64,000 nucleotides of DNA from Staphylococcus phage pSco-10. The notes under the pieces are model-generated. The model made no database searches and had not been told where the DNA came from. It worked only from the letters and a program-made list of their open reading frames with translations. How positions within the stretch are numbered: position 1 is the first letter of the stretch; every line of letters starts with the position of its first letter. Positions 1,154 through 40,053 of this stretch are shown here, in pieces. The stretch lies in sequence record KX011028.1; one strand, written 5' to 3'. The position numbers and the translations under genes are program-made.

Positions 1154-2635
1154 CTATTTTACCTTCTTTCTTTTAGGAGTATACCCATTTATATATTCCC
1201 AATAAAGTTTAGTCCCATCGGGAGCTAAAGTATGTTTTCTTTTACCTCTACATACTTCTCCTATTTTACTTCCTTTAGGTAAATTATAAAAAGATATAGC
1301 ATCTTTAACCCCATCAAACTCTTTACCTGTGTTTAAACATCTTACTGCATTTTTATTACTACTACCTATTTTAACTGGTTGGTACCCTAAATTTCTCTTT
1401 AATATACCTGATACTTTACAAGAAGAAAATCCAGTAGCAAAGCTAATTTGTCTCATAGGTACCCCTTTATTATATAACTCTATTACTTTTAAAACATAAT
1501 CATCTTTACTTTTTATTATATCAAATATCTCTCTATCTTCTACACCTTCAAGTAAAAAAGATAACTTAGATTTAGATATACTTTCTTTGATGTAACTTAG
1601 TTCCGAAATACGACAATCAATCTCTATTAATTCTATATCATTATTTTTGCAATAATCCTTCTTATACTTCATAGATACATTATGTTGCTTTACTGTATTC
1701 CCCCAATTAGTACTATTATTATAATGTTGTCTTCCATGTGTTTCTACTGCTAATTTTTTGTTACCTAAAGTAAATATAAAATCTATTCTCTTTCTGTTAT
1801 CTATTTGTACTTCTGATTCGAAATTTATATTATTTAGCTCTAAGTAAGCAGAGAAAACTTTTTGAGGTAAGGGTGTTTTTTCTGAACAATAAGTACAATT
1901 AAATCCTCTATTTACTAACTTATCTATACTAATATACTTTTTAAAATAACAACCTTTATTGTGACACTTTATCTGTATTTTATTGGGAGACCCTATAGTT
2001 TTGTATTTATCTTCCTCATTAACCAAGTATTTAATTAAATCAGGTCTTTTCCTTTCTATAGAATTAATTAATTTTTTATATTGTTTTGGGAATACAGAAT
2101 TGCTAGTTGATTCTAATAAAGTTTTTTCTTTTACCGTTATCTCTACATTTTTCTCAATGTTTAAAACTTTATAAGATTTCATTCTTCTTCCGCTCTTCTC
2201 CGTATAATAGCAATAATCAATTATTTTACATCCTTTTACAATATCACCTTTAGAGAATCTAAAAGTATTTAAGTATGTTTTATTGAGAGCATTACCTAAA
2301 GCTACCTTCATTAAAGTAATTGATGATACAGAATAATTATCTAATAGTAAATAATTAATATGTTCTTTATTAGTATAACTATATATTAACTTCTTACGAT
2401 ACATTGTACCGTAATTGAAAGTGATATCATGTTCTACATTCTTCCAATCAATACAGTATTTACCTTTATAGAATTTAGTTGGTAAAGTACTTAAATCTAT
2501 CCAATCTATATCTCCATTATTCCTTTGTATATACCATACAAAATCTTTATTGCACTTCTTCTTACCTGTTCTTTCCATTTCTTGTTTAGCCCACTCTACA
2601 TCTACAACACTAGGTACTTCTATATTATTTTCCAT
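1154..2635 (-). CDS. free-standing homing-endonuclease-like protein (493 aa): Vsr/DUF559-like PD-(D/E)XK core (RIDFIF...LAVETHGRQHY) plus C-terminal NUMOD/HTH-like DNA-binding repeats
   Basis: motif recognition in translation; own promoter 2667..2695. Confidence 0.5.
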   Translation of the reverse strand: MENNIEVPSVVDVEWAKQEMERTGKKKCNKDFVWYIQRNNGDIDWIDLSTLPTKFYKGKYCIDWKNVEHDITFNYGTMYRKKLIYSYTNKEHINYLLLDNYSVSSITLMKVALGNALNKTYLNTFRFSKGDIVKGCKIIDYCYYTEKSGRRMKSYKVLNIEKNVEITVKEKTLLESTSNSVFPKQYKKLINSIERKRPDLIKYLVNEEDKYKTIGSPNKIQIKCHNKGCYFKKYISIDKLVNRGFNCTYCSEKTPLPQKVFSAYLELNNINFESEVQIDNRKRIDFIFTLGNKKLAVETHGRQHYNNSTNWGNTVKQHNVSMKYKKDYCKNNDIELIEIDCRISELSYIKESISKSKLSFLLEGVEDREIFDIIKSKDDYVLKVIELYNKGVPMRQISFATGFSSCKVSGILKRNLGYQPVKIGSSNKNAVRCLNTGKEFDGVKDAISFYNLPKGSKIGEVCRGKRKHTLAPDGTKLYWEYINGYTPKRKKVK

Positions 2636-28674: not shown

Positions 28675-30990
28675 TTAAATTTCTTGATAGATAGATTTCT
28701 CACCTTTAACTACATTAGTAGCCTTTTCAAATTGTTCATCTGTTAACTTACCTGACTCCTTATAGTCTTCTAGTGTTTGTAAGTTCATCATGTACTTAAT
28801 ATAACCTTGGTAAGAGTTAAATGTTTCTATTTCTTCTTCGTCATATTCCACCATATCGTTATAGTTTAAACCAATTTCCATATCAGCTTCAATAGGGTAC
28901 TGTACCTCTTTCCCATCAATCTCTGCTTTTAAGAAATCAAACGGTAAGTTTTCCATGATATGGATTGTCACCTTAGCCATAATCTTAGCCTCTTCAGGAG
29001 GACAATCAATTAAGATACTATCGTGTACTGTGGCAATAACTTTTGATTTCAAGTTACGAGACTGAATAAAGTCATCTAAGTAAGTTAGAGACATATTTGT
29101 TAAGAAACTACCTGAACCTTGGATAATAGTATTAAATGACTGTCTTAGACCTTCATTTTTTATCTTTTTATCTGCTGATTGAGCTGAACGGATAAATCTT
29201 CTGTGTCCGTGCATTGTATCAACATAACCATATTGTTGCACAAATTCATGTACGCTGTCAATAGAAGTTTTTACACTCGGTTTTGTTTGGAAATACTTTT
29301 CAAATATTTCTTCTGCTTCACTTACTTCCATATTATTTTTGCCTGCAAATGAGAATGGTGATTCACCAAAGGCTAATCCAAAGTTTACTGCTTTAGTTGC
29401 TTGTCTTTCTTCTTTAGTTACTTCTTCTACTGGTTTATTATAAACAATACTTGCAGTAGCTTTATGGATATCTTCTCCGTTTAGGAACGATTGTAGCATA
29501 TCAGGGTCTTTAGTAAATAATCCAATAATACGCATCTCTAGGGCACTATAGTCGGCTCCTAGTAATACTCCATTTTCAAATCTAGAAACAAATGAACGTT
29601 TAATAGGATGCTTATAATCAAACTTGTTTACATCTGATGTATGGGCAGGTAAGTTTTGTAAGTTAGGATTACTACTACTTAATCGTGATGTCTCTGTACC
29701 TGTCTCAGAGAAAGAACCATGTAATGTTCGTTTTTGTTTATTAATCATGTTAGGTAATTTCTTAGTAAATGAATTACGTTTTGTCTGCATACTAGCATGA
29801 TATTTAAGTAATTCAAGCAGTTCTTTAACATCATCTTTTAAATCTAAGTTATCTAATGCATAACTAATAGCTTTCTTATCTGTTTTATAATCCTGCCAAG
29901 TAAGGTCTGCTTCTTTAACATTAGCGTTAAAGGGTTTTTCTTTAATATACTCTTTATCGTAAGGTAATTGAATTCCTAAAATATCATACATTACTCTACC
30001 CTTATGGTCTCCTGAACTAGGAGAAAACATCCATTTACCGTCTTTAAACTTATCTCTATACTGATGAATATCTTTGTCTCTTTCTTTTGGCTTTTTCTCA
30101 TGCTCTTCTAATGCCATTTGGTAAAGGTTATACTGGTACTCTTCAAACTCTTTAACAGCCCAGTGCTCTCTCATTGTAGCATGGTTCTTAGTCATCTCAG
30201 ACTCATATGACTCATCATTTTCTTTCATATAGTCTAAATCACAGTATAAACCATTTGATTCAATTCTAGCTAGTGATTTAGTTAATCTAGGGTAATTAAC
30301 TTCTAATAAATGCATAGACTTAGGTCTATCTTGTTCTTCTAATTTTTTAACTACATCACAGTGAATTCTTCTACATACATCTGTATCCCCTGATGCATAA
30401 GGGTGCATTAACTCAATAGGGAACCAATCATAGTTAAAGTTACCCCCATCAATATCATTCACTACATCTTTTGCATCTCTATACTTATTGATTAAATCAA
30501 TTGCAGTATTTAGTGTGTAAGACTTAGCCTCATTAGATAATCCCATATATTCAGGTGATTGTTCTGCAATAACCTTAAAGTCATCTTCTGCAGTACAATC
30601 CATACTAACAACTTCAGGTATTAACCCTAACTGAGTATATTTGTTTTCTAACGTACCTTCTGTCATTTCTTCTAGCTTGTTATTTAACCATTCTTTATAT
30701 TCAGGGGCTTTAACATCATATTCTTTCTTAGCAACCTTTTTATTCTCTTTTTGTATTTCTTTAATTTTATCAGAGAAAAATCTCAATAACTTAGTAACAA
30801 ACCATAATTTAAAATCTTCTAGTGGTTTATCATAACCTCCGACATCTGTTACCTCATAAGCTAAATCAGATAATCTTAGTGACTCTTTAACTTCTTGTGT
30901 TACAGCTAAGTACCAACCTACTTTAGTATCTTGAATATTCTCAAAATCCTTAAAATTCTCAGTACTCATTAGGAATTTAATATCATATTT
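28675..30990 (-). CDS. polA: DNA polymerase, family A, exon 2 (771 aa); motif A DYSALEMRI, motif B RQATKAVNFGLAFG, motif C HDSILID
   Basis: Pol I family motifs; exon begins KYDIKFL, completing Exo II motif HNG|KYD. Confidence 0.8.
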   Translation of the reverse strand, partial: KYDIKFLMSTENFKDFENIQDTKVGWYLAVTQEVKESLRLSDLAYEVTDVGGYDKPLEDFKLWFVTKLLRFFSDKIKEIQKENKKVAKKEYDVKAPEYKEWLNNKLEEMTEGTLENKYTQLGLIPEVVSMDCTAEDDFKVIAEQSPEYMGLSNEAKSYTLNTAIDLINKYRDAKDVVNDIDGGNFNYDWFPIELMHPYASGDTDVCRRIHCDVVKKLEEQDRPKSMHLLEVNYPRLTKSLARIESNGLYCDLDYMKENDESYESEMTKNHATMREHWAVKEFEEYQYNLYQMALEEHEKKPKERDKDIHQYRDKFKDGKWMFSPSSGDHKGRVMYDILGIQLPYDKEYIKEKPFNANVKEADLTWQDYKTDKKAISYALDNLDLKDDVKELLELLKYHASMQTKRNSFTKKLPNMINKQKRTLHGSFSETGTETSRLSSSNPNLQNLPAHTSDVNKFDYKHPIKRSFVSRFENGVLLGADYSALEMRIIGLFTKDPDMLQSFLNGEDIHKATASIVYNKPVEEVTKEERQATKAVNFGLAFGESPFSFAGKNNMEVSEAEEIFEKYFQTKPSVKTSIDSVHEFVQQYGYVDTMHGHRRFIRSAQSADKKIKNEGLRQSFNTIIQGSGSFLTNMSLTYLDDFIQSRNLKSKVIATVHDSILIDCPPEEAKIMAKVTIHIMENLPFDFLKAEIDGKEVQYPIEADMEIGLNYNDMVEYDEEEIETFNSYQGYIKYMMNLQTLEDYKESGKLTDEQFEKATNVVKGEKSIYQEI

Positions 30991-31788
30991 CGTTTTAGCC
31001 TGTATATTTCTATACAGAACGGACTATACCTTCATAAGCCCTTACCATTAGGTTTGTTTGTAGTTACCTAAATGGGCTTGATGTCCCTCATTTACATAGT
31101 GTGATTATTTTTTGTGATGTGTATCTTCATGACATGATTTACATAACCATTTTATTTCTAAAGGTTTGTTGTAATCAGGATGATGAGCCTCAGGAATACA
31201 TTCCTTATTACACTCTGAACATTTACTAGGTCTTAATAGAGAACCGTTTCTTAATGCAGTTCTTACAGAGCTTCTAGCTTTAGCTTTTAAAGAATTATTT
31301 TCTCTGTATTTTCTTGAACGCTTTTTATTTAGTTCTCTTCCTCTTTCAGAAGTATTATACTCATTACTTTGTTTCCGATACTTATCTCCATTTTTCTCAT
31401 AACATTTTTTAATAGTATTTTTAGTTTTATCTAATTTATTATATTCCTTTCTACAAGGTATACACATACTCTGATAATAAGTTTTATCATTCTTTTTATA
31501 TGTTTTAAAATTAGATAAATCTAACTCTTCATTACATCTTCTGCATACTTTTTTGTTATTTTTAACTGATGTCATATAATCTTTTTTCACTGTACCACCT
31601 CTATTAAGTTGATACACTATGTCTCACCTTGGTCTACAAAACCTCGGCTCAGTCTCTACACCCCATCTATTGTCACCAATAATGTAGGCTCGGGATTACC
31701 ACTATCCTTATTACAGGACTTAGGTTCTCTTATCAGCTTCTTAAAGCTATGCCCGATATGAGAGGGATTTTACAACAGCAAATCATTT
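30991..31788 (-). other. group I intron (798 nt) in DNA polymerase gene, carrying an HNH homing endonuclease ORF
   Basis: exon 1 ends in U (…AHNG, ggt), intron ends in G (…aaaacg); GC-rich structured core segments; both exons in frame (289 + 771 codons). Confidence 0.65.
31105..31617 (-). CDS. intron-encoded HNH endonuclease (170 aa, GTG start); Cys-rich zinc motifs plus AHHPDYNKPLEIKWLCKSCH
   Basis: HNH motif; RBS aaggtgag before GTG. Confidence 0.7.
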   Translation of the reverse strand: MYQLNRGGTVKKDYMTSVKNNKKVCRRCNEELDLSNFKTYKKNDKTYYQSMCIPCRKEYNKLDKTKNTIKKCYEKNGDKYRKQSNEYNTSERGRELNKKRSRKYRENNSLKAKARSSVRTALRNGSLLRPSKCSECNKECIPEAHHPDYNKPLEIKWLCKSCHEDTHHKK

Positions 31789-32655
31789 ACCGTTGTGTGC
31801 CACCTTGATATCTTCTTTACTAGCTAACCAATTCTTAAGTAATTCTAATACTTCATCAATATCATCTTGACCATTTCCCCACTTAAAGTCTGATTTATAT
31901 AAAGGTATAGTTACACCTTGACCATTTCTCCATGATAGAGATAATACTAAAGGTTTACTTCCTTCTTTATCAGGTTTCAGTGAGTTAGTCTCTAAGTCCC
32001 ATGCAGTGATATCTACACCATCATAATTATCGTTCTTTACTTCCTTAGTAAATATTTCTCTAACTCTTTCAATGTTATCTACTAATTCATAAGCTACCTC
32101 TTTAGGTTTAAATGCTTCTTCACCTTGCTCTACAAACTTACCTACTGTTTGTAGGTCTGATACAACATGACGTTCACTGTTTTTATTTACATTAGTATAT
32201 TCAATACTGTACGTAGGTAATACCCAAACGTCATGAGAAGATGTTTCATTTTCAACTGTTACTTTACTTGGTACTCCTCTTACTTTACCGATAGCTGTAA
32301 CATTTAATAAGTATTTAACTCCTAATTTACCTACAGGAATAATCATATCATAAGCATTATCAATAATAATGTTATTCATTCTTTCATAATACGGTTTTAC
32401 TTCTGCTTGTTTAACATCTTGATATTTAATAATCTTACCATAATCATTTCTAATAGGTGTAGGTACTGCATTATAAAGAAAATCAATATCATAGTCTCTA
32501 TTTGTTTTATCTCTCTTTAAGTTAGAACACTTCTCAAGTAATTTCTTAAGTGTTTTTCCATTAGGTGTATTTAATACATTAGATTTCACACTCCCGTCTT
32601 TACTTACAGAAAAATGTTCTTCTCTAATGTGGTCGAATAAGATTAATACTTTCAT
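31789..32655 (-). CDS. polA: DNA polymerase, family A, exon 1 (289 aa; 3'-5' exonuclease motifs ITAWDLETNSL, ...VAHNG)
   Basis: Exo I DxE and Exo II motifs. Confidence 0.75.
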
Positions 32656-34500: not shown

Positions 34501-35589
34501 TTATAGGAATTCTTTAGCAATACTATATTCCTTACTATCTAAGAATGAGAAATCTTCATCTTTAATATCTTTGATATTTGTAGATTTTTCATAGTCTGCT
34601 TTACCACTAAAGAAATCAACATTTCGTAATCTATCTACATTAGTTTGATTTTCTACAATAGGGTTATACGGTTCAGGATTAAAGTAGTCTTCTCTACCTA
34701 GGTTTTGAAGAGCTCTGTTAAAGTTATACTGAACATAGTTAATTACGTCTTCACTTAATTCTAATGGGTCATATAGGCTATGTGTATATGCTACTTCATT
34801 AGTGTAAAGGATATCTAGTAATTCATAAGTTTCCTTATCTGCTAAGTTTTTCTCTTGTTCTGTTAAAAGATTATAATCATATTGAGCTGTTAATCCTACT
34901 GCTGAACCATGATAAGCTTCATCTTGGGTAATCTTATAAATGATAGCTCCTGATTGTGTCATCTGTCCTCTACCTGCAAGAAGTAGTGGGTAATAAAATC
35001 CTGAGTAGAATAATGCACTTTCTAAGAAGGCACTAGCTACTTTAGCCATATATCTATCGAATATAGTAGGGTTAGGTTTTAGTAACTGGTCATAGTAATA
35101 ACCAATAAACTGAGCTTTTACTTTTAAGAAGTCATTTTCTTCAACCCAAGTATCTAACAAATAACTTGTTTCTTTATTATTTAGTAATGTTGTAAAGATA
35201 TGACTATAAGATTTGGCATGTATCTCTTCCATACCACCCATAAACGCAAATACAGCCTGGTATTTAGGTCTTGGTTCATGATAGGATACTAAGTTCATAC
35301 CTTCCCCTCCTTGCTTTGTATCGAGCCCTGTGAGCCCTGCAAGGACTTTCTTATAAGTGTTCTTTTCACTCTCAGTTAAACTGTTCCAAGAACTTAAATC
35401 TCTTGATACATCAAACTCTTCAGGAGTCCAAAATTGGGAGATTCCTTGCTCCCAATAAATATCAGACATCCCGTCATCTTCAATATTCCAGTTTGTTGCT
35501 TTTAATACTGCATTTTTATTATGTTGTTTTACCTTTTGTGTAATATCCATATCTATTTCCCTTCTAAACCGAACATGTTTCACATTCAA
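34501..35589 (-). CDS. nrdF: ribonucleotide reductase class Ib small subunit (362 aa)
   Basis: diiron ligand motifs (EEIHAKSYS, EAYHGS). Confidence 0.8.
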   Translation of the reverse strand: MNVKHVRFRREIDMDITQKVKQHNKNAVLKATNWNIEDDGMSDIYWEQGISQFWTPEEFDVSRDLSSWNSLTESEKNTYKKVLAGLTGLDTKQGGEGMNLVSYHEPRPKYQAVFAFMGGMEEIHAKSYSHIFTTLLNNKETSYLLDTWVEENDFLKVKAQFIGYYYDQLLKPNPTIFDRYMAKVASAFLESALFYSGFYYPLLLAGRGQMTQSGAIIYKITQDEAYHGSAVGLTAQYDYNLLTEQEKNLADKETYELLDILYTNEVAYTHSLYDPLELSEDVINYVQYNFNRALQNLGREDYFNPEPYNPIVENQTNVDRLRNVDFFSGKADYEKSTNIKDIKDEDFSFLDSKEYSIAKEFL

Positions 35590-36532
35590 TAACAGAAAGT
35601 TTACGTGAACGTGTATAATATAGTGATTTTAATCCTTGTTCCCAAGCATAGTAGTATAGTGATACTAACTTATTAGTCGGTATCTCTGACTCTACATAAA
35701 GAATAGTAGATACTGCTTGGTCTGTGTGCTTCTGAACTACCGCACTTGTATTAATAATACGTTTATTATCAATCTTATAAGCTGTTTCTCCTTCATAGAA
35801 GAATTGAGTTATAGGACTTAGGTAAGGCATTGGGTAGTATGTCTCCATATCTCCATACTGTCTATTCTCAATAGCACTAGGTACAGGCATAATTGAGCTT
35901 GTAGCATTCTGTACGTATGATATAGATTGAGTAGGTGCTTCGGCTTTTCTATATCCATTATATAATCCATGAATTTTAACTGCTTTAGCCAATTCATCCC
36001 AATCATCTTGAGTTGGAATATAAATTTTACTTAATACTTTCTTAGCTTTTTCTGTTTTAGGTTGGTTAGACTCTCTAATATATCTTACAAAGTATTCACC
36101 TGTAGCATAATCAGATTTTTCAAACCCTTTAAATGGTTTACCTGTTTCTTTAGCCATTAACATAGAAGTTTTAATAGATTGGAAATTAATAGCACTGTAT
36201 AAACTATTTACTAAGTCTAATGCTTCTCTAGAACCGTAACTAATCATATTCTTAGCTAAAAGTCCATGTAAATTCATTGAACCTAAACCGATAGCTCTAA
36301 TGTCATCATTTGCTTTCTGAACACTAGGTAGATATGGTAAATCCATAATATCAGTAACTTTAGTTAATGCTCTTGTTCCGATATCTACAGATTCATTTAA
36401 TAAACCTTTTTCAACTACATTAACTAAATTAAGTGAACCTAATGTACAAACAACATCTCTATTAATAATATTCTTATTGCTGTGTGCATAAGGGTGTATT
36501 TCTGATACCTCTTGTAATTGTGAAATTTCTGT
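35564..36532 (-). CDS. nrdE: ribonucleotide reductase large subunit, exon 3 (322 aa; begins TEISQLQEV..., ends ...IECETCSV)
   Basis: completes the NLC|TEI active-site motif; matches NrdE middle/C-terminal region. Confidence 0.75.
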   Translation of the reverse strand, partial: TEISQLQEVSEIHPYAHSNKNIINRDVVCTLGSLNLVNVVEKGLLNESVDIGTRALTKVTDIMDLPYLPSVQKANDDIRAIGLGSMNLHGLLAKNMISYGSREALDLVNSLYSAINFQSIKTSMLMAKETGKPFKGFEKSDYATGEYFVRYIRESNQPKTEKAKKVLSKIYIPTQDDWDELAKAVKIHGLYNGYRKAEAPTQSISYVQNATSSIMPVPSAIENRQYGDMETYYPMPYLSPITQFFYEGETAYKIDNKRIINTSAVVQKHTDQAVSTILYVESEIPTNKLVSLYYYAWEQGLKSLYYTRSRKLSVIECETCSV

Positions 36533-37473
36533 CCTGTATATTCAGTAATGGTCGTTAATCATTACCAGTTCTCTTATGAACTTCCTTATGTTTCCATAAG
36601 TGAGTAGACTATATCATTCTTCCTCTTGGGAAGTCCACCGTTTCGATTTAACAAGGCTTTATACGATTATTACTCGGTACCTTGACCACTTGGCTCTAAC
36701 CTTATCCCTTCACTTATGTGAATAGGTTACAGATAGTCGTTGGGCATTTAATATAAATTGTAATCATTTCTTTTCAAATTTTCTAGGTGTTAACCTTTTA
36801 TACTCAGGGTAATTATCAGAATCTAATCTATAACCAATTGTAGTATGTCCTATACCTAAAGTTCTAGATGCCTCAGATGTGCTCTCATATTTTATACCAT
36901 CTATCTCTATTGCTTTAGAGTTAGCTTTTTTTACAGAGTTTATCATCTTTTCTGTTTTAGGCTTACCGTACTGATGATTTCCTTGACCGCTCATTTGTTG
37001 CTTTCTCATCTCTCTAAGCTCTTCTTTTCGAGGGTTTGTTGTAAATATATCTCCTCCTACGGAAGATAATTTTACATTATAGTAATTATCATCATAAACT
37101 GCATTGGTTTCTAATATTAGTTCTTCCTCATCCTTTTCTAATTCTTCTGTCGTATAGTAATTTTTTATAATTTCTTTAGTAAAATTATTTTTACCATACT
37201 TCTTAATATCTTCTTGTAGATATCTTCCTGAACCTAAGTACTTTTCCCAATCATTTATTCTATTATAAAGAAATTTTCCGATATACTTTTTACCATTTAT
37301 AGAGCATGTAGTTATATAAACAGCTCCGATAGGTTTATTTTCCATAATATCACTCTCCTATGAGTGATTACAATTTATATATTTAGCAACGGATTACCAT
37401 ATCATTTGACGTAGGCTTCCCCGTTTTAGATGGATTTTTCGATAACGATTGCTCGTTAAAGGTGCATTTGTTT
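36533..37473 (-). other. group I intron 2 of nrdE (941 nt) carrying a GIY-YIG endonuclease ORF
   Basis: exon 2 ends …SNLC (tgt, U), intron ends …atacagg (G); contains td-intron-like element tctaaaacggggaagcc and TAGTC P7-like segment. Confidence 0.7.
36764..37345 (-). CDS. intron-encoded GIY-YIG homing endonuclease (193 aa; GAVYITTCSINGKKYIGK)
   Basis: GIY-(10 aa)-YIG motif. Confidence 0.75.
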   Translation of the reverse strand: MENKPIGAVYITTCSINGKKYIGKFLYNRINDWEKYLGSGRYLQEDIKKYGKNNFTKEIIKNYYTTEELEKDEEELILETNAVYDDNYYNVKLSSVGGDIFTTNPRKEELREMRKQQMSGQGNHQYGKPKTEKMINSVKKANSKAIEIDGIKYESTSEASRTLGIGHTTIGYRLDSDNYPEYKRLTPRKFEKK

Positions 37474-37899
37474 ACACAAGTTACTCATTTTAACTTTACC
37501 TAAGTTTTTAAGAGGGTGGTTATCATTGGCATTATCAACATAGAATACGTAAGGATAACCTGATTCTAATTGTGTTTTAGCAATATCTGTCATGACTTCT
37601 CTAGCATCATGTTTTACTTTACCAATCTTATCATTAGTTAGTAGTTCTTCGTACCATTCATCAATGTTTAATTCATCTAGATACTTACCATATACTTTAT
37701 TAATATCATAAGTGTCAAAAGTATAGAAAGGTTTGCCTTCTTTAACTAATTCCATAAATTTATTAGGAATTGTAACACCAATAGATAATTTATCTAGTCT
37801 AACTGATTCACTGGCATTAATTTTCTTAGAACTTAATAAATCCAAAATATCATTGTGGAATATGTTTAAGTAAACTGCTCCACTTCCTTGTCTTACTCC
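37474..37899 (-). CDS. nrdE: ribonucleotide reductase large subunit, exon 2 (142 aa; GVRQGSGAVYLNIFHNDI...KVKMSNLC)
   Basis: matches NrdE RQGSGAAYLNIFH...SNLC region; length divisible by 3. Confidence 0.7.
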
Positions 37900-38094
37900 C
37901 AGTTATGTTACGAATAGAATCGTTACTTCTATCCTTCTATATGTCACCATATAAGCTCAGACTATATCATAATCCTAGACGTTACTCTAGAATCCTCTCT
38001 ATTTCCAATCACTTGATTGTACTCTACTCAGTTATATTGCAATAAGCCCTCCCGGCGTAAAGCTCACTTTTCGATAGTCGTTGCACAAAATAAC

Positions 38095-38763
38095 TTACCA
38101 ATTCATTAAATGTTTAAGTTTAACCCATCTTTTCTTACTTTTAATATGGTAGTAAATACTCTCTGTTGCTTTTGGTACTTCAGCTAGTATATAATTCTTG
38201 TCATACCCTTTATTTATCATATCAATTATAAGCTTAGCATCACTTTCAGTTATCGTTTTATCATAATTAACGAGTCCTGATTTATGTGCATGTGTATTAT
38301 TTTCTTCTATGGTACACCATTCTAGATTAAGTACACTATTATTTAATTTATCCCCATCTCTATGATTTATATACTTCTTACTTCTATCATTTTGAGGTAT
38401 AAAAGCCTTAGCTATTAATCTATGTTTAAATAGATACTTATATTTACCATTAACTTTAATTCTAAACTTGTGATAACCTTTTTTAATTTGAGAAGCTACG
38501 ACATAATTAAATTCTGTATTTACTAATCTACCATGATTAGTTATAGAGTAGTTTTTAAACTCTGTCTCTACTAGAATTTCAAAAGGTTCTCTTTTAAACT
38601 CAGGTAATCCCATTTTTACTTTAGTTAAGTTATTTTTATTTCGGTAATTTTGAATAGTTGTTTTAGGTATATCTAACTCTTTAGATAATTCCCTATCAGT
38701 CATAGTTAAATAATTATCTTTAATGAATTTCTGTATTTCTTTGTTTTCAGTTATTTTGCTCAT
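38095..38763 (-). CDS. intron-encoded HNH endonuclease (about 222 aa; NHRDGDKLNNSVLNLEWCTIEEN) with N-terminal HTH
   Basis: HNH motif; RBS aaaaaggagac before ATG at 38763. Confidence 0.7.
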   Translation of the reverse strand: MSKITENKEIQKFIKDNYLTMTDRELSKELDIPKTTIQNYRNKNNLTKVKMGLPEFKREPFEILVETEFKNYSITNHGRLVNTEFNYVVASQIKKGYHKFRIKVNGKYKYLFKHRLIAKAFIPQNDRSKKYINHRDGDKLNNSVLNLEWCTIEENNTHAHKSGLVNYDKTITESDAKLIIDMINKGYDKNYILAEVPKATESIYYHIKSKKRWVKLKHLMNW

Positions 38764-38785
38764 GATTGTCTCCTTTTTTTCTTTT

Positions 38786-38814
38786 AGTATAGCATAAGTA
38801 TTACTAAAAGTCAA
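38786..38814 (-). promoter_or_regulatory. promoter TTGACT-17-TATACT located inside nrdE intron 1, driving the HNH gene
   Basis: agtcaa 38809..38814, agtata 38786..38791 on plus strand. Confidence 0.55.
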
Positions 38815-38887
38815 GTTTGGAGAGTTCCCATGAATTAAGAGAGTTTTTTAACCTATAATATCTCTACTATAGGGGGCAGTTTTATTT

Positions 38888-39607
38888 ACCCTGGTCATAA
38901 ATACCTACTTTATGCTCAATAGCTTTAGCAAAAGCAATAACACCTTTACTTGAGTTAGGTCTATTACGTACTGGAGCACCTTTAGGTCTAATTCTAGTTA
39001 AGTCAATTGCAACTCCGCCACCATTAGAACTAGCGTTAGCTACACTATCTTCAACAAAGTTTAGAGACTCAATTGAATCATCTACTACAAATAGGTAACA
39101 TGAACTTAGTTCACCTCTATTGGCTTGTCCTGAGTTATTATACGTAGGTGTAGATGGTTGGAATGTTTGTTCCATAAGTTGTACTAGTAATTCTCTAGCT
39201 TTTACATAATCATTTTGGAATAGATATAAAGCTACTCGAACGTTATGTTGCTCATAATCTTCAACAAAAATAGGTTTCTCATCTTCATCATACTGTTTTG
39301 ATGCATAAGACTCATAAAACTTCTGACCTGCCATGAAACTAGGGAACTTAAAGTTAAAGCTGTAAGCTAACTTAGTCATTTCATCAATAATAGTATCAGG
39401 AACACTATCAAATATCTTATCATAAGTTCCTTCTTCTGTCAATACTCTAATTCTTTCTACTTCACTACTAAATTTTCTTGTGTTATCATCAATATATTTT
39501 AAATACTCATCTAAAGCTTCTTGGTCTTTATAGAGTTTATTTTTTCCATTATCATCTAATTGAGTTATCTCGTTGTTTAACTCAATCCATTTTCCATATG
39601 TTGCCAT
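38888..39607 (-). CDS. nrdE: ribonucleotide reductase large subunit, exon 1 (240 aa)
   Basis: N-terminal NrdE homology; exons 1+2+3 = 704 aa. Confidence 0.7.
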
Positions 39608-39621
39608 ATATCTCTCATCCT

Positions 39622-40053
39622 TTACGCTACTTTATATTTATTACTAAAGTGTTCTAATATTGGTTGTATCTCGTTAAAGTGTCCTGATTGCTCTACTTTA
39701 GCAATTAAAGGAATCTTAAACATCTCTGAAATCTTTGTACTTGCTCCACAGAAATTAGAGCCCCATTGTTTATTTCCTGTACCAATAACTTCTTTAGGGC
39801 TCCCATTAATTTCTAAGAATCTTTCTATTTGTTTAGGTATTGCACCTTTCATATAAGTAGGTGTTATTAGTATAAAAGGTTTATCTACTTTCTCTTTTCC
39901 ACTCTTAACTCTAAACGTTTCAAATGAATTATTAATATTAATTTTGTTTACTAGTCGTTCTGTTTGTCCTGTACCTGAAAAATATACAATTAACGGTCTT
40001 TCTTTACTTGTCATACTTATCTTACCTTCCTTATATATCACTAAGAAGGTCAT
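39622..40053 (-). CDS. nrdI: NrdI flavodoxin-like protein (143 aa)
   Basis: flavodoxin-like motif (VYFSGTGQTERL) and position upstream of nrdE. Confidence 0.7.
   Translation of the reverse strand: MTFLVIYKEGKISMTSKERPLIVYFSGTGQTERLVNKININNSFETFRVKSGKEKVDKPFILITPTYMKGAIPKQIERFLEINGSPKEVIGTGNKQWGSNFCGASTKISEMFKIPLIAKVEQSGHFNEIQPILEHFSNKYKVA

What the first reader, a model, noticed from the sequence alone, without database searches (positions are those of the whole stretch)
35564..39607. nrdE interrupted by two group I introns carrying different homing-endonuclease families, the second inside the catalytic NLC|TEI motif
The three minus-strand pieces 38888..39607, 37474..37899 and 35564..36532 are each a multiple of 3 and concatenate to a 704-aa NrdE. 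The junctions read YDQG|GVRQGSGAVYLNIF and KMSNLC|TEISQLQEV, which restores the universally conserved active-site cysteine loop. Both exon ends are U and both intron ends are G, as the group I rule requires. Intron 1 (about 988 nt) carries an HNH endonuclease; intron 2 (941 nt) carries a GIY-YIG endonuclease and contains a tctaaaacggggaagcc element reminiscent of T4 td/nrdB-type IA2 introns. Twin introns with different homing-endonuclease families in one gene indicate repeated homing into the most conserved codons.
Basis: partly seen in the sequence, partly recalled or inferred. Interest (0 to 1): 0.7.

Follow-up and report, generated by a model that had tools for sequence, protein, structure and literature searches.

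The report
Phage nrdE with two group I introns

Summary
The observation and the interpretation both hold. The three minus-strand exons (39607..38888, 37899..37474, 36532..35564) join into a 704-aa NrdE. It is 702/704 identical, without gaps, to the uninterrupted NrdE of phage JDYN. Intron-free relatives lack exactly 988 nt and 941 nt at these sites.

Both inserts have a full IA2-type group I fold with strong covariation: 30 of 73 and 30 of 93 pairs carry double changes. A covariance model built only from other phages' introns hits both 3' domains (131 bits and 42.5 bits) and ends exactly at both predicted 3' splice sites. Rfam RF00028 finds nothing here, but that is a false negative. It scores the ORF-less Twort orf142 relatives at 64-101 bits and also misses the Twort nrdE locus, whose two introns are published as self-splicing.

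- **Intron 1:** the HNH-bearing form of Twort nrdE-I1, at the same site.
- **Intron 2:** related to Twort orf142-I1 and resembles T4 td. It carries an I-TevI-like GIY-YIG gene in P6 and is already present in phiIPLA-C1C, Twillingate and others.

No searched record carries both introns. Verdict: new member of a known kind, low to moderate interest.

The parts
38888..39607 (-). nrdE exon 1 (720 nt, codons 1-240, ends ...CAG GGU)
   Evidence: G at -4 and U at -1 pair with the intron guide sequence.
37900..38887 (-). Intron 1, group I (IA2-like), 988 nt, inserted between Gly240 and Gly241 of the DQG|GVRQG loop
   Evidence: Exactly absent from OPT-SC01, Golestan and JDYN. In-frame stop at the second intron codon. 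Covariation. Custom model hit.
38750..38887 (-). Intron 1, 5' ribozyme part: P1 3' strand 38878..38874, P2 38873..38852, P3 38843..38838, P4 38832..38829, P5 38823..38819, L5, P5' 38773..38769 (also the ORF's Shine-Dalgarno), P4' 38764..38761 (contains the ORF's AUG), P6a 38757..38750 (ORF codons 3-5)
   Evidence: 77.5% identical to the 5' part of Twort nrdE-I1.
38786..38814 (-). Promoter-like TTGACT-17 nt-TATACT with TG, inside loop L5 of intron 1 and upstream of the HNH gene
   Evidence: 10 of 12 matches, although such sites are not enriched in this region. The motif is conserved in Twort nrdE-I1 (TTGACT-17-TATAGT) and in the DELF3 intron. Function is inferred.
38095..38763 (-). HNH homing-endonuclease gene of intron 1 (222 aa), filling loop L6
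   Evidence: Pfam HNH_3, 35.8 bits. I-HmuI structure 1U3E, E 1.4e-8. 30% identity to the HNH endonuclease ORF of Twort nrdE-I2 (I-TwoI), E 5e-11.
37900..38094 (-). Intron 1, 3' ribozyme part: P6a' 38094..38087, P7 38079..38074, P7.1, P7.2 38019..38006, P3' 38000..37995, P8 37993..37972, P7' 37965..37960, P9 37954..37937, P9.1 37934..37912, terminal G at 37900
   Evidence: Custom model R1 hit 38084..37900, 131 bits, E 1.8e-25..
37474..37899 (-). nrdE exon 2 (426 nt, codons 241-382, ends ...AAC UUG UGU = N-L-C382)
36533..37473 (-). Intron 2, group I (IA2, resembles T4 td), 941 nt, inserted between Cys382 and Thr383 of NLC|TEI
   Evidence: Exactly absent from JDYN, PG-2021_35 and 184DA. In-frame stop at the sixth intron codon. 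Covariation. Custom model hit.
37365..37473 (-). Intron 2, 5' ribozyme part: P1 3' strand 37466..37462, P2 37458..37443 (GCAA loop), P3 37434..37429, P4 37424..37421, P5, P4' 37392..37389, P6 (GC), UAAAU internal loop, P6a 5' arm 37380..37365
36764..37345 (-). GIY-YIG homing-endonuclease gene of intron 2 (193 aa), in the P6a loop. Its Shine-Dalgarno lies in a small hairpin at 37366..37351.
   Evidence: Pfam SegE_GIY-YIG 40 bits and I-TevI_DNA-bd 41.1 bits. BLASTP to T4 I-TevI in both domains, E 7e-7 and 2e-4. I-TevI structure 1I3J, weak match.
36533..36766 (-). Intron 2, 3' ribozyme part: P6a 3' arm 36766..36751 (starts with the ORF stop codon), P7 36738..36733, P7.1 36729..36697, P7.2 36694..36685, an extra hairpin 36684..36652, P3' 36639..36634, P8 36633..36619, P7' 36612..36607, P9 36600..36585, P9.1 36582..36567, P9.2 36566..36544, terminal G at 36533
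   Evidence: Custom model R1 hit 36743..36533, 42.5 bits, E 4.6e-7..
35564..36532 (-). nrdE exon 3 (969 nt with stop, codons 383-704)
39622..40053 (-). nrdI (flavodoxin-like), upstream neighbour of nrdE in the class Ib gene cluster
   Evidence: ORF. The homologous gene is annotated as NrdI or flavodoxin in relatives.
34501..35550 (-). nrdF (small subunit), downstream neighbour of nrdE
   Evidence: ORF. The ATG 13 nt after the nrdE stop matches the spacing in JDYN. Annotated as nrdF in relatives.

Best explanation
The window comes from a Staphylococcus Twort-like myovirus (Herelleviridae, Twortvirinae). Its closest public relative over nrdE and polA is JDYN. Its class Ib nrdE is interrupted by two mobile, self-splicing group I introns of the phage IA2 type.

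**Splicing (inferred from the fold and from homologues).** Ribosomes coming from the upstream exon stop at in-frame stop codons 2 and 6 codons into the introns. Each intron folds into the P1-P9.x core. An external guanosine attacks after the U of the U.G pair in P1. The intron's terminal G then directs exon ligation. The product is an mRNA for a 704-aa NrdE.

**Intron 1.** It sits in the DQG|GVRQG loop. By recalled RNR literature, not tested here, this is the substrate-specificity 'loop 2'. It is the endonuclease-bearing form of Twort nrdE-I1. Its HNH gene, related to I-HmuI and I-TwoI, fills L6. The gene's Shine-Dalgarno and AUG are themselves the 3' strands of P5 and P4.

A conserved promoter-like element in L5 lies downstream of the 5' strands of P4 and P5. 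A transcript starting there would lack those strands, which would free the ribosome-binding site. This would separate endonuclease expression from ribozyme folding (inferred).

**Intron 2.** It sits between the Cys and Thr codons of the catalytic NLC|TE loop. Its closest sequence relative is Twort orf142-I1, and its architecture resembles T4 td. An I-TevI-like GIY-YIG gene is closed off by a 16-bp P6a stem.

**Mobility (inferred).** Each endonuclease would cut or nick intron-free nrdE of a co-infecting phage. Repair from the intron-bearing copy would then copy in the intron plus some flanking exon sequence.

**What is shown and what is not.** Shown: boundaries, fold, covariation, homology, intact ORFs, patchy distribution, purifying selection on the exons. 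Inferred: actual splicing, endonuclease activity, use of the internal promoter.
For: **Boundaries and product**
- Precise 988-nt and 941-nt absences in relatives.
- The spliced product is 702/704 identical and gapless to uninterrupted JDYN NrdE.
- Only 2 of the 48 nucleotide differences change an amino acid, so the split gene is under purifying selection.
- Full-length match to B. subtilis NrdE and to Pfam.

**Fold**
- Domain-by-domain minimum-energy folds recover P1 (U.G at the splice site), P2, P6/P6a (intron 2), P7.2, P8, P9 and P9.1/9.2.
- Intron 1 family (8 sequences): 92.4% of cells paired versus 34-44% when partners are slid. 30 of 73 pairs carry double changes versus 6-8. All 6 P3 pairs covary.
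- Intron 2 family (6 sequences): 97.7% paired versus 34-43%. 30 of 93 pairs carry double changes versus 0-4.
- Model R1, built only from Twort, Stau2 and T4 introns, hits 38084..37900 (131 bits, E 1.8e-25) and 36743..36533 (42.5 bits, E 4.6e-7). Both hits end on the predicted terminal G.

**Homology**
- Intron 1 is 76-78% identical to both halves of Twort nrdE-I1, at the same codon boundary.
- Intron 2 aligns along its whole core with Twort orf142-I1.
- Rfam RF00028 scores Twort orf142-I1, I2 and I3 at 63.6, 97.4 and 100.9 bits.
- The Twort nrdE introns are reported as self-splicing (Landthaler 2002, as cited in PMC3653736 and PMC3984707).

**Endonucleases:**

**Mobility**
- Eleven records carry intron 1 only and eleven carry intron 2 only.
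- Intron 2 is 95.9% identical to that of JDF86, whereas the flanking exons are about 68-79% identical apart from one 88% segment.
- The same intron sits at the same site in the 90-kb phage vB-SscS-F1, genus Sextaecvirus.
- Intron-bearing alleles carry a synonymous G at -4 that adds a G-C pair to P1, where intron-free alleles carry A.
Against: - There is no RNA or biochemical evidence for this phage.
- Rfam RF00028 gives no hit in the window, even at E<=10. The same model also misses the Twort nrdE locus and scores T4 td and nrdB below its threshold.
- No convincing P10 pairing with the 3' exon was found by eye for either intron.
- The P5 and P7.1 helices are weak or irregular in some family members.
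- Promoter-like sites are no more frequent in this region than in shuffled sequence: 21 found versus 26.4 expected. The L5 promoter therefore rests only on its conservation.
- The covariation alignments are small (6-8 sequences). The structures were drawn on the window sequence, which favours the observed register on the cells-paired measure.
Confidence: 0.93

Rival explanations
1. The inserts are free-standing endonuclease cassettes that split nrdE into separately translated fragments, which reassemble after translation (as reported for nrdA-a/nrdA-b with mobE in phage Aeh1). Alternatively, they have simply inactivated nrdE.
For: GenBank annotators of related phages call the pieces as separate 'ribonucleotide reductase' or hypothetical CDSs. 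A split but functional nrdA is reported for Aeh1 (PMC3653736). Rfam finds no intron here.
Against: - Exon 2 and exon 3 have no start codon at the point where homology begins. The listed ORFs start internally.
- The flanks of both endonuclease genes fold into a covarying group I core.
- The deletions in relatives are exact to the nucleotide and in frame.
- 46 of the 48 exon differences from JDYN are synonymous, which argues against a pseudogene.
Confidence: 0.03
2. The introns still splice but are no longer mobile, because one or both endonucleases are inactive relics that are only inherited vertically.
For: Endonuclease decay is common in this lineage. Twort nrdE-I1 keeps only the first ~35 nt and last ~86 nt of the HNH gene. 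T4 I-TevIII is annotated as defective. The generic GIY-YIG model PF01541 scores below its cut-off, 17.1 versus 22.6 bits.
Against: - Both ORFs are full length and uninterrupted, with Shine-Dalgarno sequences.
- The HNH core (HRDGDKLNN...NLEW) aligns to I-HmuI.
- The GIY/YIG, Arg, Glu and Asn positions are present by eye, and the more specific SegE and I-TevI models pass their cut-offs.
- Near-identical introns sit in phages whose exons are far more diverged, which indicates recent transfer.
Confidence: 0.15
3. The inserts are inteins or group II introns rather than group I introns.
For: RNR genes are a frequent intein host (PMC3653736).
Against: - In-frame stops occur 2 and 6 codons after each junction, and the endonuclease ORFs have their own starts.
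- No intein, reverse-transcriptase or maturase domain was found.
- The group I core is established.
Confidence: 0.005

Closest known systems
Staphylococcus phage Twort nrdE introns I1 (429 nt, no ORF) and I2 (1087 nt, HNH I-TwoI). Landthaler et al., NAR 2002, as cited in PMC3653736 and PMC3984707; the lengths are from my own knowledge and agree.
   Same: Same gene, same phage subfamily, two group I introns next to functionally important codons. Window intron 1 sits at exactly the same codon boundary (CCAGGGU|) as Twort I1 and is 76-78% identical in both ribozyme halves. The HNH protein belongs to the same family as I-TwoI.
   Different: Here intron 1 still carries a complete HNH gene; Twort I1 is its deletion derivative. 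The window's second intron is at a different site (NLC|TEI rather than about APT|QSIS), has a different ribozyme relative (orf142-I1) and carries a GIY-YIG rather than an HNH endonuclease.
T4 td intron with I-TevI
   Same: IA2 architecture. The elements match closely: J3/4-P4 (UCUAAACGGGGAACC versus UCUAAAACGGGGAAGCC), P6 formed by GC/GC plus a UAAAU/UAAAU internal loop plus P6a, the endonuclease gene in the P6a loop, the AACGACUAUC and GAUAUAGUCU strands of P7, the AUUAACGACC loop in P9.2, and a GIY-YIG enzyme with an I-TevI-type DNA-binding domain.
   Different: Different host gene (thymidylate synthase). Protein identity is only about 28%. Intron 2 has an extra hairpin between P7.2 and P3'. 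The td similarity is too low for blastn; the only T4 hit is 54 nt in nrdB.
Twort orf142 introns I1-I3. Landthaler & Shub 1999. From my own knowledge, I2 is the crystallised Twort ribozyme.
   Same: They are ORF-less relatives: I1 aligns with window intron 2, and I3 and I2 align with window intron 1. Rfam recognises them at 64-101 bits.
   Different: They are in a structural gene rather than nrdE, have no endonuclease genes, and lack the L5 insertion.
nrdE intron with GIY-YIG gene in phiIPLA-C1C, Twillingate, BE25, Alsa_2, OPT-SC01, Golestan-105-M, JDF86 and vB-SscS-F1
   Same: The same intron at the same NLC| site, 82-96% identical. The GenBank annotation is 'GIY-YIG homing endonuclease'. An intron in a ribonucleotide reductase subunit is reported for this phage group (PMC6597688).
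   Different: None of these records also carries intron 1.
Brochothrix phage nrdE: A9 is described as having three introns plus an intein (PMC3653736). BtpYZU04 was examined here.
   Same: An ORF-less, td-like group I intron lies exactly between NLC and SEI, with the same GUGU/GCAC P1. Several introns occupy one nrdE.
   Different: Different genus and host, no endonuclease gene in that intron, and different additional sites.
SPO1/SP82 DNA polymerase introns with I-HmuI and I-HmuII
   Same: The best solved-structure match for the intron 1 protein is I-HmuI. These are phage IA2 introns with HNH nicking enzymes.
   Different: Different host gene. Nicking activity here is only inferred.

Membership tests
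Group I intron (subgroup IA2, phage type) | 5' exon ends in U, which forms a U.G wobble in P1 with an internal guide sequence | tested here: met
   Intron 1: GGGU|A pairs with UGCCC. Intron 2: GUGU|A pairs with UGCAC. Both are recovered by minimum-energy folding, and the pairs are conserved in the families.
Group I intron (subgroup IA2, phage type) | The intron ends in G (the omega G) | tested here: met
   G at 37900 and at 36533. Both custom-model hits end on these bases.
Group I intron (subgroup IA2, phage type) | Conserved core P3-P4-P5-P6 and P7-P3'-P8-P7', with the P3/P7 pseudoknot supported by covariation | tested here: met
   Intron 1: P3 6/6 pairs covary and are 100% paired; P7 is 5/6 invariant; P4, P5, P6 and P8 are 92-100% paired. 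Intron 2: P3 97%, P4 100%, P7 97%, P8 100% paired.
Group I intron (subgroup IA2, phage type) | Extra P7.1/P7.2 helices between P7 and P3' (subgroup IA) | tested here: met
   P7.2 (CAAUC-AAGU-GAUUG and GCC-AAGU-GGU) and P7.1 are present and covary.
Group I intron (subgroup IA2, phage type) | Match to Rfam RF00028 at the gathering score | tested here: inconclusive
   No hit in the window. Controls: Twort nrdE locus, no hit. T4 td and nrdB, 40.3 and 35.7 bits, below the 50-bit threshold. ORF-less Twort orf142 introns, 63.6-100.9 bits. The tool cannot take an ORF-deleted sequence.
Group I intron (subgroup IA2, phage type) | Match to an independent covariance model built from known group I introns | tested here: met
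   Model R1, built without any window sequence: 131 bits (E 1.8e-25) and 42.5 bits (E 4.6e-7). The next hit scores 11.4 bits.
Group I intron (subgroup IA2, phage type) | Guanosine-dependent self-splicing | not testable with these tools
   Needs RT-PCR or in vitro GTP labelling.
HNH homing endonuclease (I-HmuI / I-TwoI type) | HNH catalytic motif and family profile match | tested here: met
   PF13392 scores 35.8 bits against a cut-off of 24.8. I-HmuI 1U3E, E 1.4e-8, with HRDGDKLNN...NLEW aligned to HKDGNKDNN...NLRW. The Twort nrdE-I2 HNH ORF (I-TwoI), E 5e-11.
HNH homing endonuclease (I-HmuI / I-TwoI type) | Site-specific nicking of the intron-free allele | not testable with these tools
   Biochemical assay required.
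GIY-YIG homing endonuclease (I-TevI type) | N-terminal GIY-YIG catalytic domain | tested here: met
   PF19835 SegE_GIY-YIG scores 40 bits against a cut-off of 25. The generic PF01541 scores 17.1 bits, below its 22.6 cut-off. BLASTP to the I-TevI N-terminal domain gives E 2e-4.
GIY-YIG homing endonuclease (I-TevI type) | C-terminal I-TevI-type DNA-binding domain | tested here: met
   PF20987 scores 41.1 bits against a cut-off of 27. I-TevI, E 7e-7. Structure 1I3J, E 0.055.
Class Ib ribonucleotide reductase alpha subunit (NrdE) | RNR_N, all-alpha and barrel domains, a continuous NLCxE active-site loop, and an nrdI-nrdE-nrdF gene order | tested here: met
   (all three Pfam domains, full length). 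(6cgl residues 7-699, with SNLCTEI aligned to SNLCSEV).. Neighbours.

The most novel reading that the evidence does not exclude
This is the first recorded nrdE allele that combines the site-A HNH intron with the site-B (active-site) GIY-YIG intron. Window intron 1 would also be the intact ancestral form of the classic ORF-less Twort nrdE-I1.

In intron 1 the endonuclease's Shine-Dalgarno and AUG are the 3' strands of P5 and P4, and an L5-internal promoter would bypass that sequestration. Together these would form a built-in switch between ribozyme folding (host-gene expression) and endonuclease expression.

With Twort (sites A and C) and an IMG/VR contig (sites B and C), nrdE of these phages would be a three-site arena in which introns assort independently.
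Probability: 0.4. Interest if true: 0.4.

Novelty: new member of a known kind. Interest (0 to 1): 0.25.

Why it matters
**Annotation.** The gene should be annotated as one spliced nrdE plus two intron-encoded endonucleases. Several related GenBank records instead list three 'hypothetical' or partial RNR fragments.

**Biology.** It adds a clean data point to the established picture that homing endonucleases target the most conserved codons of phage nucleotide-metabolism genes.
- nrdE of Twort-like phages has at least three independently occupied intron sites.
- The pairing found here (site A with site B) was not seen in any collection searched.
- Intron 1 supplies the endonuclease-bearing counterpart of Twort nrdE-I1, so the two together illustrate the gain-and-decay cycle of homing endonuclease genes.
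- Intron 1 also offers a testable case of an endonuclease start site built into the P4/P5 core.

**Method.** RF00028 misses ORF-containing phage introns, so a negative Rfam result cannot be used to refute such calls.

Tried and rejected
**Rfam.** The whole-window scan at gathering threshold and the 35400..39800 scan at E<=10 gave only chance snoRNA-like matches and no RF00028 hit. I did not take this as refutation, for three reasons:
- Twort nrdE, published as self-splicing, is also missed.
- T4 td and nrdB score below threshold.
- The ORF-less Twort orf142 introns score strongly.

**Alignment.** MAFFT alignment of intron 2 with T4 td and with the full RSM-J51Sa intron misaligned the 5' half. 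I dropped td, removed the non-homologous P4-P6 module of RSM-J51Sa, and compared td by eye instead.

**Folding.** Minimum-energy folding of the intron 1 P4-P6 domain gave a non-canonical fold. Comparison with Twort orf142-I3 and the Stau2 intron gave the correct P4/P5/P6.

**Literature.** The Landthaler 2002 paper could not be read. It is cited through PMC3653736 and PMC3984707.

**Searches for a two-intron allele:**
- No phage record covers at least 80% of the region.
- The carrier lists for the two introns do not overlap.
- The IMG/VR contigs have intron 2 without intron 1.
- The intron 1 junction is absent from the metagenome and bacterial genome collections.

**Co-conversion.** Apart from the -4 G at each site, the exon mosaic pattern was suggestive but not conclusive. 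Apparent differences at CDS 1148/1150 in OPT-SC01 and Golestan are an alignment artefact of the 8-nt similarity between the intron start and the exon 3 start.

**Other readings.** Intein, group II intron and split-gene readings were considered and rejected on reading frames and fold.

**Excluded record.** Fi4S2 shows an inverted duplication next to the intron and was left out of the alignments.

Full report
**1. The observation**

On the minus strand, 39607..38888 (720 nt), 37899..37474 (426 nt) and 36532..35564 (969 nt) are each a multiple of three. They concatenate to a 704-codon ORF. Both upstream exons end in T, and both inserts (988 and 941 nt) end in G.

The joined protein covers the three Pfam domains of a class Ib large subunit end to end: RNR_N, Ribonuc_red_lgN and Ribonuc_red_lgC (profile positions 1-523 of 523). 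It aligns without a break across both junctions to the solved B. subtilis NrdE (6cgl, residues 7-699, E 5e-171). In that alignment DQGGVRQGSGAVYLNIFH lies over DQMGQRQGSGAAYLNIFH, and SNLCTEI lies over SNLCSEV.

**2. Source, and independent proof of the boundaries**

A megablast of 35500..39700 finds 314 phage records, almost all Staphylococcus Twortvirinae. Most of the records listed cover 54% of the query in three pieces that span 2272 nt. That is the query length minus 988 and 941 nt.

- **JDYN** lacks both inserts.
- **OPT-SC01 and Golestan-105-M** lack only the first insert.
- **PG-2021_35, the EW phages and 184DA** lack only the second insert.

The break points fall exactly at 38888|38887, 37900|37899 and 36533|36532. 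The fourth, 37474|37473, has a 1-nt ambiguity (A on both sides) that the U/G rule resolves.

The spliced product is 702/704 identical, with no gap, to JDYN's uninterrupted 704-aa NrdE. The two coding sequences differ at 48 nucleotides, of which only two change an amino acid. The interrupted gene is therefore under the same purifying selection as an intact one. Published Kayvirus NrdE is also 704 aa (PMC5618024).

**3. Are the inserts group I introns?**

Controls show this is uninformative:

| Control | RF00028 result |
|---|---|
| Twort nrdE locus (two introns reported as self-splicing; Landthaler 2002, cited in PMC3653736 and PMC3984707) | no hit |
| T4 td and nrdB introns | 40.3 and 35.7 bits, below the 50-bit threshold |
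| ORF-less Twort orf142 introns I1, I2, I3 | 63.6, 97.4 and 100.9 bits |

The long ORF and loop insertions are what defeat the model.

I therefore tested the fold directly.

*Intron 1.* blastn shows that both ribozyme halves are 76-78% identical to Twort nrdE-I1 (429 nt), which sits at the same CCAGGGU| boundary. Comparison with Twort orf142-I3/I2, the Stau2 helicase intron and a DELF3 intron gives this structure:

- P1: GGGUA/UGCCC
- P2: 9 bp with a GAGA loop
- P3: CUCUCU/AGAGAG
- P4: CAUG/CAUG
- P5: UCUCC/GGAGA
- P6: GC/GC plus AAAAUAAC/GUUAUUUU
- P7: GACUAU/AUAGUC
- P7.1, P7.2, P8, P9 (GUGA loop), P9.1 and a terminal G

On the 8-sequence alignment, 92.4% of cells are paired, against 34-44% when the partners are slid. 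30 of 73 pairs carry changes on both sides, against 6-8. All six P3 pairs covary.

*Intron 2.* Its core aligns throughout with Twort orf142-I1. By eye it matches T4 td element for element: P6 formed by GC/GC, the UAAAU/UAAAU internal loop, P6a, and the ORF in the P6a loop. On 6 sequences, 97.7% of cells are paired against 34-43% slid, and 30 of 93 pairs carry double changes against 0-4.

*Independent model.* I built a covariance model of the 3' domain (P7 to the 3' end). It used only Twort nrdE-I1/I2, Twort orf142-I2/I3, the Stau2 helicase intron and T4 td, and no window sequence. It finds 38084..37900 at 131 bits (E 1.8e-25) and 36743..36533 at 42.5 bits (E 4.6e-7). Both hits end exactly on the predicted terminal G. 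The next hit scores only 11.4 bits.

*Other checks.* Translation from the upstream exon would stop at the 2nd codon of intron 1 and the 6th codon of intron 2. Early in-frame stops are described as usual for phage group I introns (PMC2504315), and they exclude inteins.

**4. The endonucleases and how they sit in the ribozymes**

*Intron 1.* It encodes a 222-aa HNH protein (38763..38095). The matches are Pfam HNH_3, I-HmuI 1U3E at E 1.4e-8 with the HxDGxxxNN...NLxW core aligned, and 30% identity to the HNH ORF of Twort nrdE-I2, I-TwoI.

The gene's AUG lies in the 3' strand of P4, and its GGAGA lies in the 3' strand of P5. Codons 3-5 form the 5' strand of P6a, and the 3' strand of P6a starts right after the stop codon. 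A folded ribozyme would therefore hide the start site.

Loop L5 holds TTGACT-17-TATACT with an upstream TG (38814..38786). The motif is conserved as TTGACT-17-TATAGT in Twort nrdE-I1 and in DELF3. A transcript starting there would lack the 5' strands of P4 and P5 and would expose the start site. This resembles what I recall for I-TevI expression in T4. Here it is an inference, because promoter-like sites are not enriched in this AT-rich region.

Twort nrdE-I1 aligns to positions 1-160 and 708-988 of intron 1. It keeps about 35 nt of the 5' end and about 86 nt of the 3' end of the HNH gene. It is therefore a deletion derivative of an intron like this one.

*Intron 2.* It encodes a 193-aa GIY-YIG protein (37345..36764). 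Pfam gives SegE_GIY-YIG at 40 bits and I-TevI_DNA-bd at 41.1 bits, and both domains align to T4 I-TevI. A 16-bp P6a stem closes the loop, and the stop codon is the first triplet of its 3' arm. The Shine-Dalgarno lies in a small hairpin.

**5. Mobility**

In the phage collection, 11 records carry intron 1: PG-2021_35, nine EW phages and 184DA. Another 11 carry intron 2: JDF86, OPT-SC01, Twillingate, Golestan-105-M, Alsa_2, vB-SscS-F1, BE25, phiIPLA-C1C (two records), S2G3 and Fi4S2. The two lists do not overlap, and no record covers 80% or more of the region.

- **Transfer between diverged phages.** Intron 2 is 95.9% identical to that of JDF86, while the nrdE exons of the two phages are about 68-79% identical apart from one 88% segment. 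The same intron is also in the 90-kb phage vB-SscS-F1, genus Sextaecvirus.
- **Module exchange.** RSM-J51Sa has the same P1-P3 and 3' domain as intron 2 but a different P4-P6 module and a different ORF.
- **Exon changes at the sites.** Intron-bearing alleles carry a synonymous G at -4 (CAG GGU and UUG UGU), where intron-free alleles carry A. This G adds a G-C pair to P1.
- **A third site.** An IMG/VR contig (L020) has intron 2 plus a third intron with an I-TwoI-like HNH gene at about APT|QSIS, which is approximately the Twort nrdE-I2 site.
- **The same site in another genus.** Brochothrix phage BtpYZU04 has an ORF-less, td-like intron exactly at NLC|SEI.

So nrdE in these phages has at least three sites that are occupied independently. 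The window has A+B, Twort has A+C and L020 has B+C.

**6. Comparison with what is known, and verdict**

- Brochothrix phage A9 nrdE is described as having three introns and an intein.
- An intron with precise boundaries in a ribonucleotide reductase subunit was reported for the Quidividi/Terranova/Twillingate phage group (PMC6597688).
- GenBank already annotates the GIY-YIG gene inside nrdE of phiIPLA-C1C and Twillingate.

Three things are new, and only modestly so:
- the particular A+B combination;
- the intact, HNH-bearing form of the Twort nrdE-I1 lineage;
- the overlap of the HNH start site with P4 and P5, together with a conserved promoter-like element.

Splicing and endonuclease activity remain inferred. 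RT-PCR, GTP labelling and cleavage assays would settle them.

Noticed in passing
window 30970..31782 (minus strand), between ORFs 32655..31783 and 30969..28675: The DNA polymerase I gene is also split into a 290-aa N-terminal ORF and a 764-aa C-terminal ORF. The intervening ~810 nt hold a 170-aa Cys-rich ORF (31617..31105) whose C-terminus looks HNH-like by eye (HHPDYN...CKSCH..THH). Pfam gives no family hit for it above threshold. The custom 3'-domain model gives a weak hit at 31105..30977 (11.4 bits, E 1.4) containing GGUAUAGUC, just upstream of the downstream ORF. This is probably a third group I intron. 213 of 241 related phage records cover this region, and polA introns are published for phage K-like viruses.
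   Followed up: partly
window 38786..38814 (minus strand), loop L5 of intron 1: A near-consensus TTGACT-17-TATACT with an extended -10 TG lies inside the ribozyme, upstream of the HNH gene. It is conserved in Twort nrdE-I1 and a DELF3 intron but absent from the ORF-less Twort orf142-I2/I3 and Stau2 introns. Twort nrdE-I1 keeps it although it has lost the ORF.
   Followed up: partly
window 38891 and 37477 (position -4 of each 5' exon): All intron-bearing alleles have a synonymous G here (CAG, UUG), and all intron-free alleles examined have A. The G extends P1 by one G-C pair. This could reflect co-conversion, selection for splicing, or protection of the target site.
   Followed up: partly
window 37885..37855 (CDS positions 735-765, start of exon 2): A cluster of six or seven synonymous differences sets the window apart from all close relatives, including the carriers of intron 1. 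The distant JDF86 shares four of them. This may be a short recombination or co-conversion patch from an unsampled donor.
   Followed up: no
L010 601..1499 (Staphylococcus phage RSM-J51Sa nrdE): An intron at the same NLC| site shares P1-P3 and the whole 3' domain with intron 2 (89-96% identity). Its P4-P6 module is unrelated, and it carries a different 190-aa ORF with only a weak I-HmuI NUMOD-like match. This is an example of shuffling of ribozyme modules.
   Followed up: partly
L020 2708..3866 (IMG/VR contig 3300032031_000222): This nrdE carries intron 2 plus another intron of about 1.16 kb at about APT|QSIS, with an I-TwoI-like NUMOD4/HNH/NUMOD1 gene. That site is unoccupied in the window, where it corresponds to 35933|35932.
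   Followed up: partly
L022 395..700 (Brochothrix phage BtpYZU04): An ORF-less, td-like group I intron of about 300 nt lies exactly between NLC and SEI of nrdE, using the same GUGU/GCAC P1. The record annotates the pieces as separate RNR CDSs.
   Followed up: partly
L009 (Staphylococcus phage Fi4S2, PV037056.1), about 1448..1703: Directly after the intron 2 homologue, the record contains an inverted copy of intron sequence and then a tail tube gene. This is either a rearrangement or an assembly artefact.
   Followed up: no
L003 282..429 (Staphylococcus phage 184DA): About 148 nt of extra sequence lies between nrdI and nrdE relative to the window. It was not examined.
   Followed up: no
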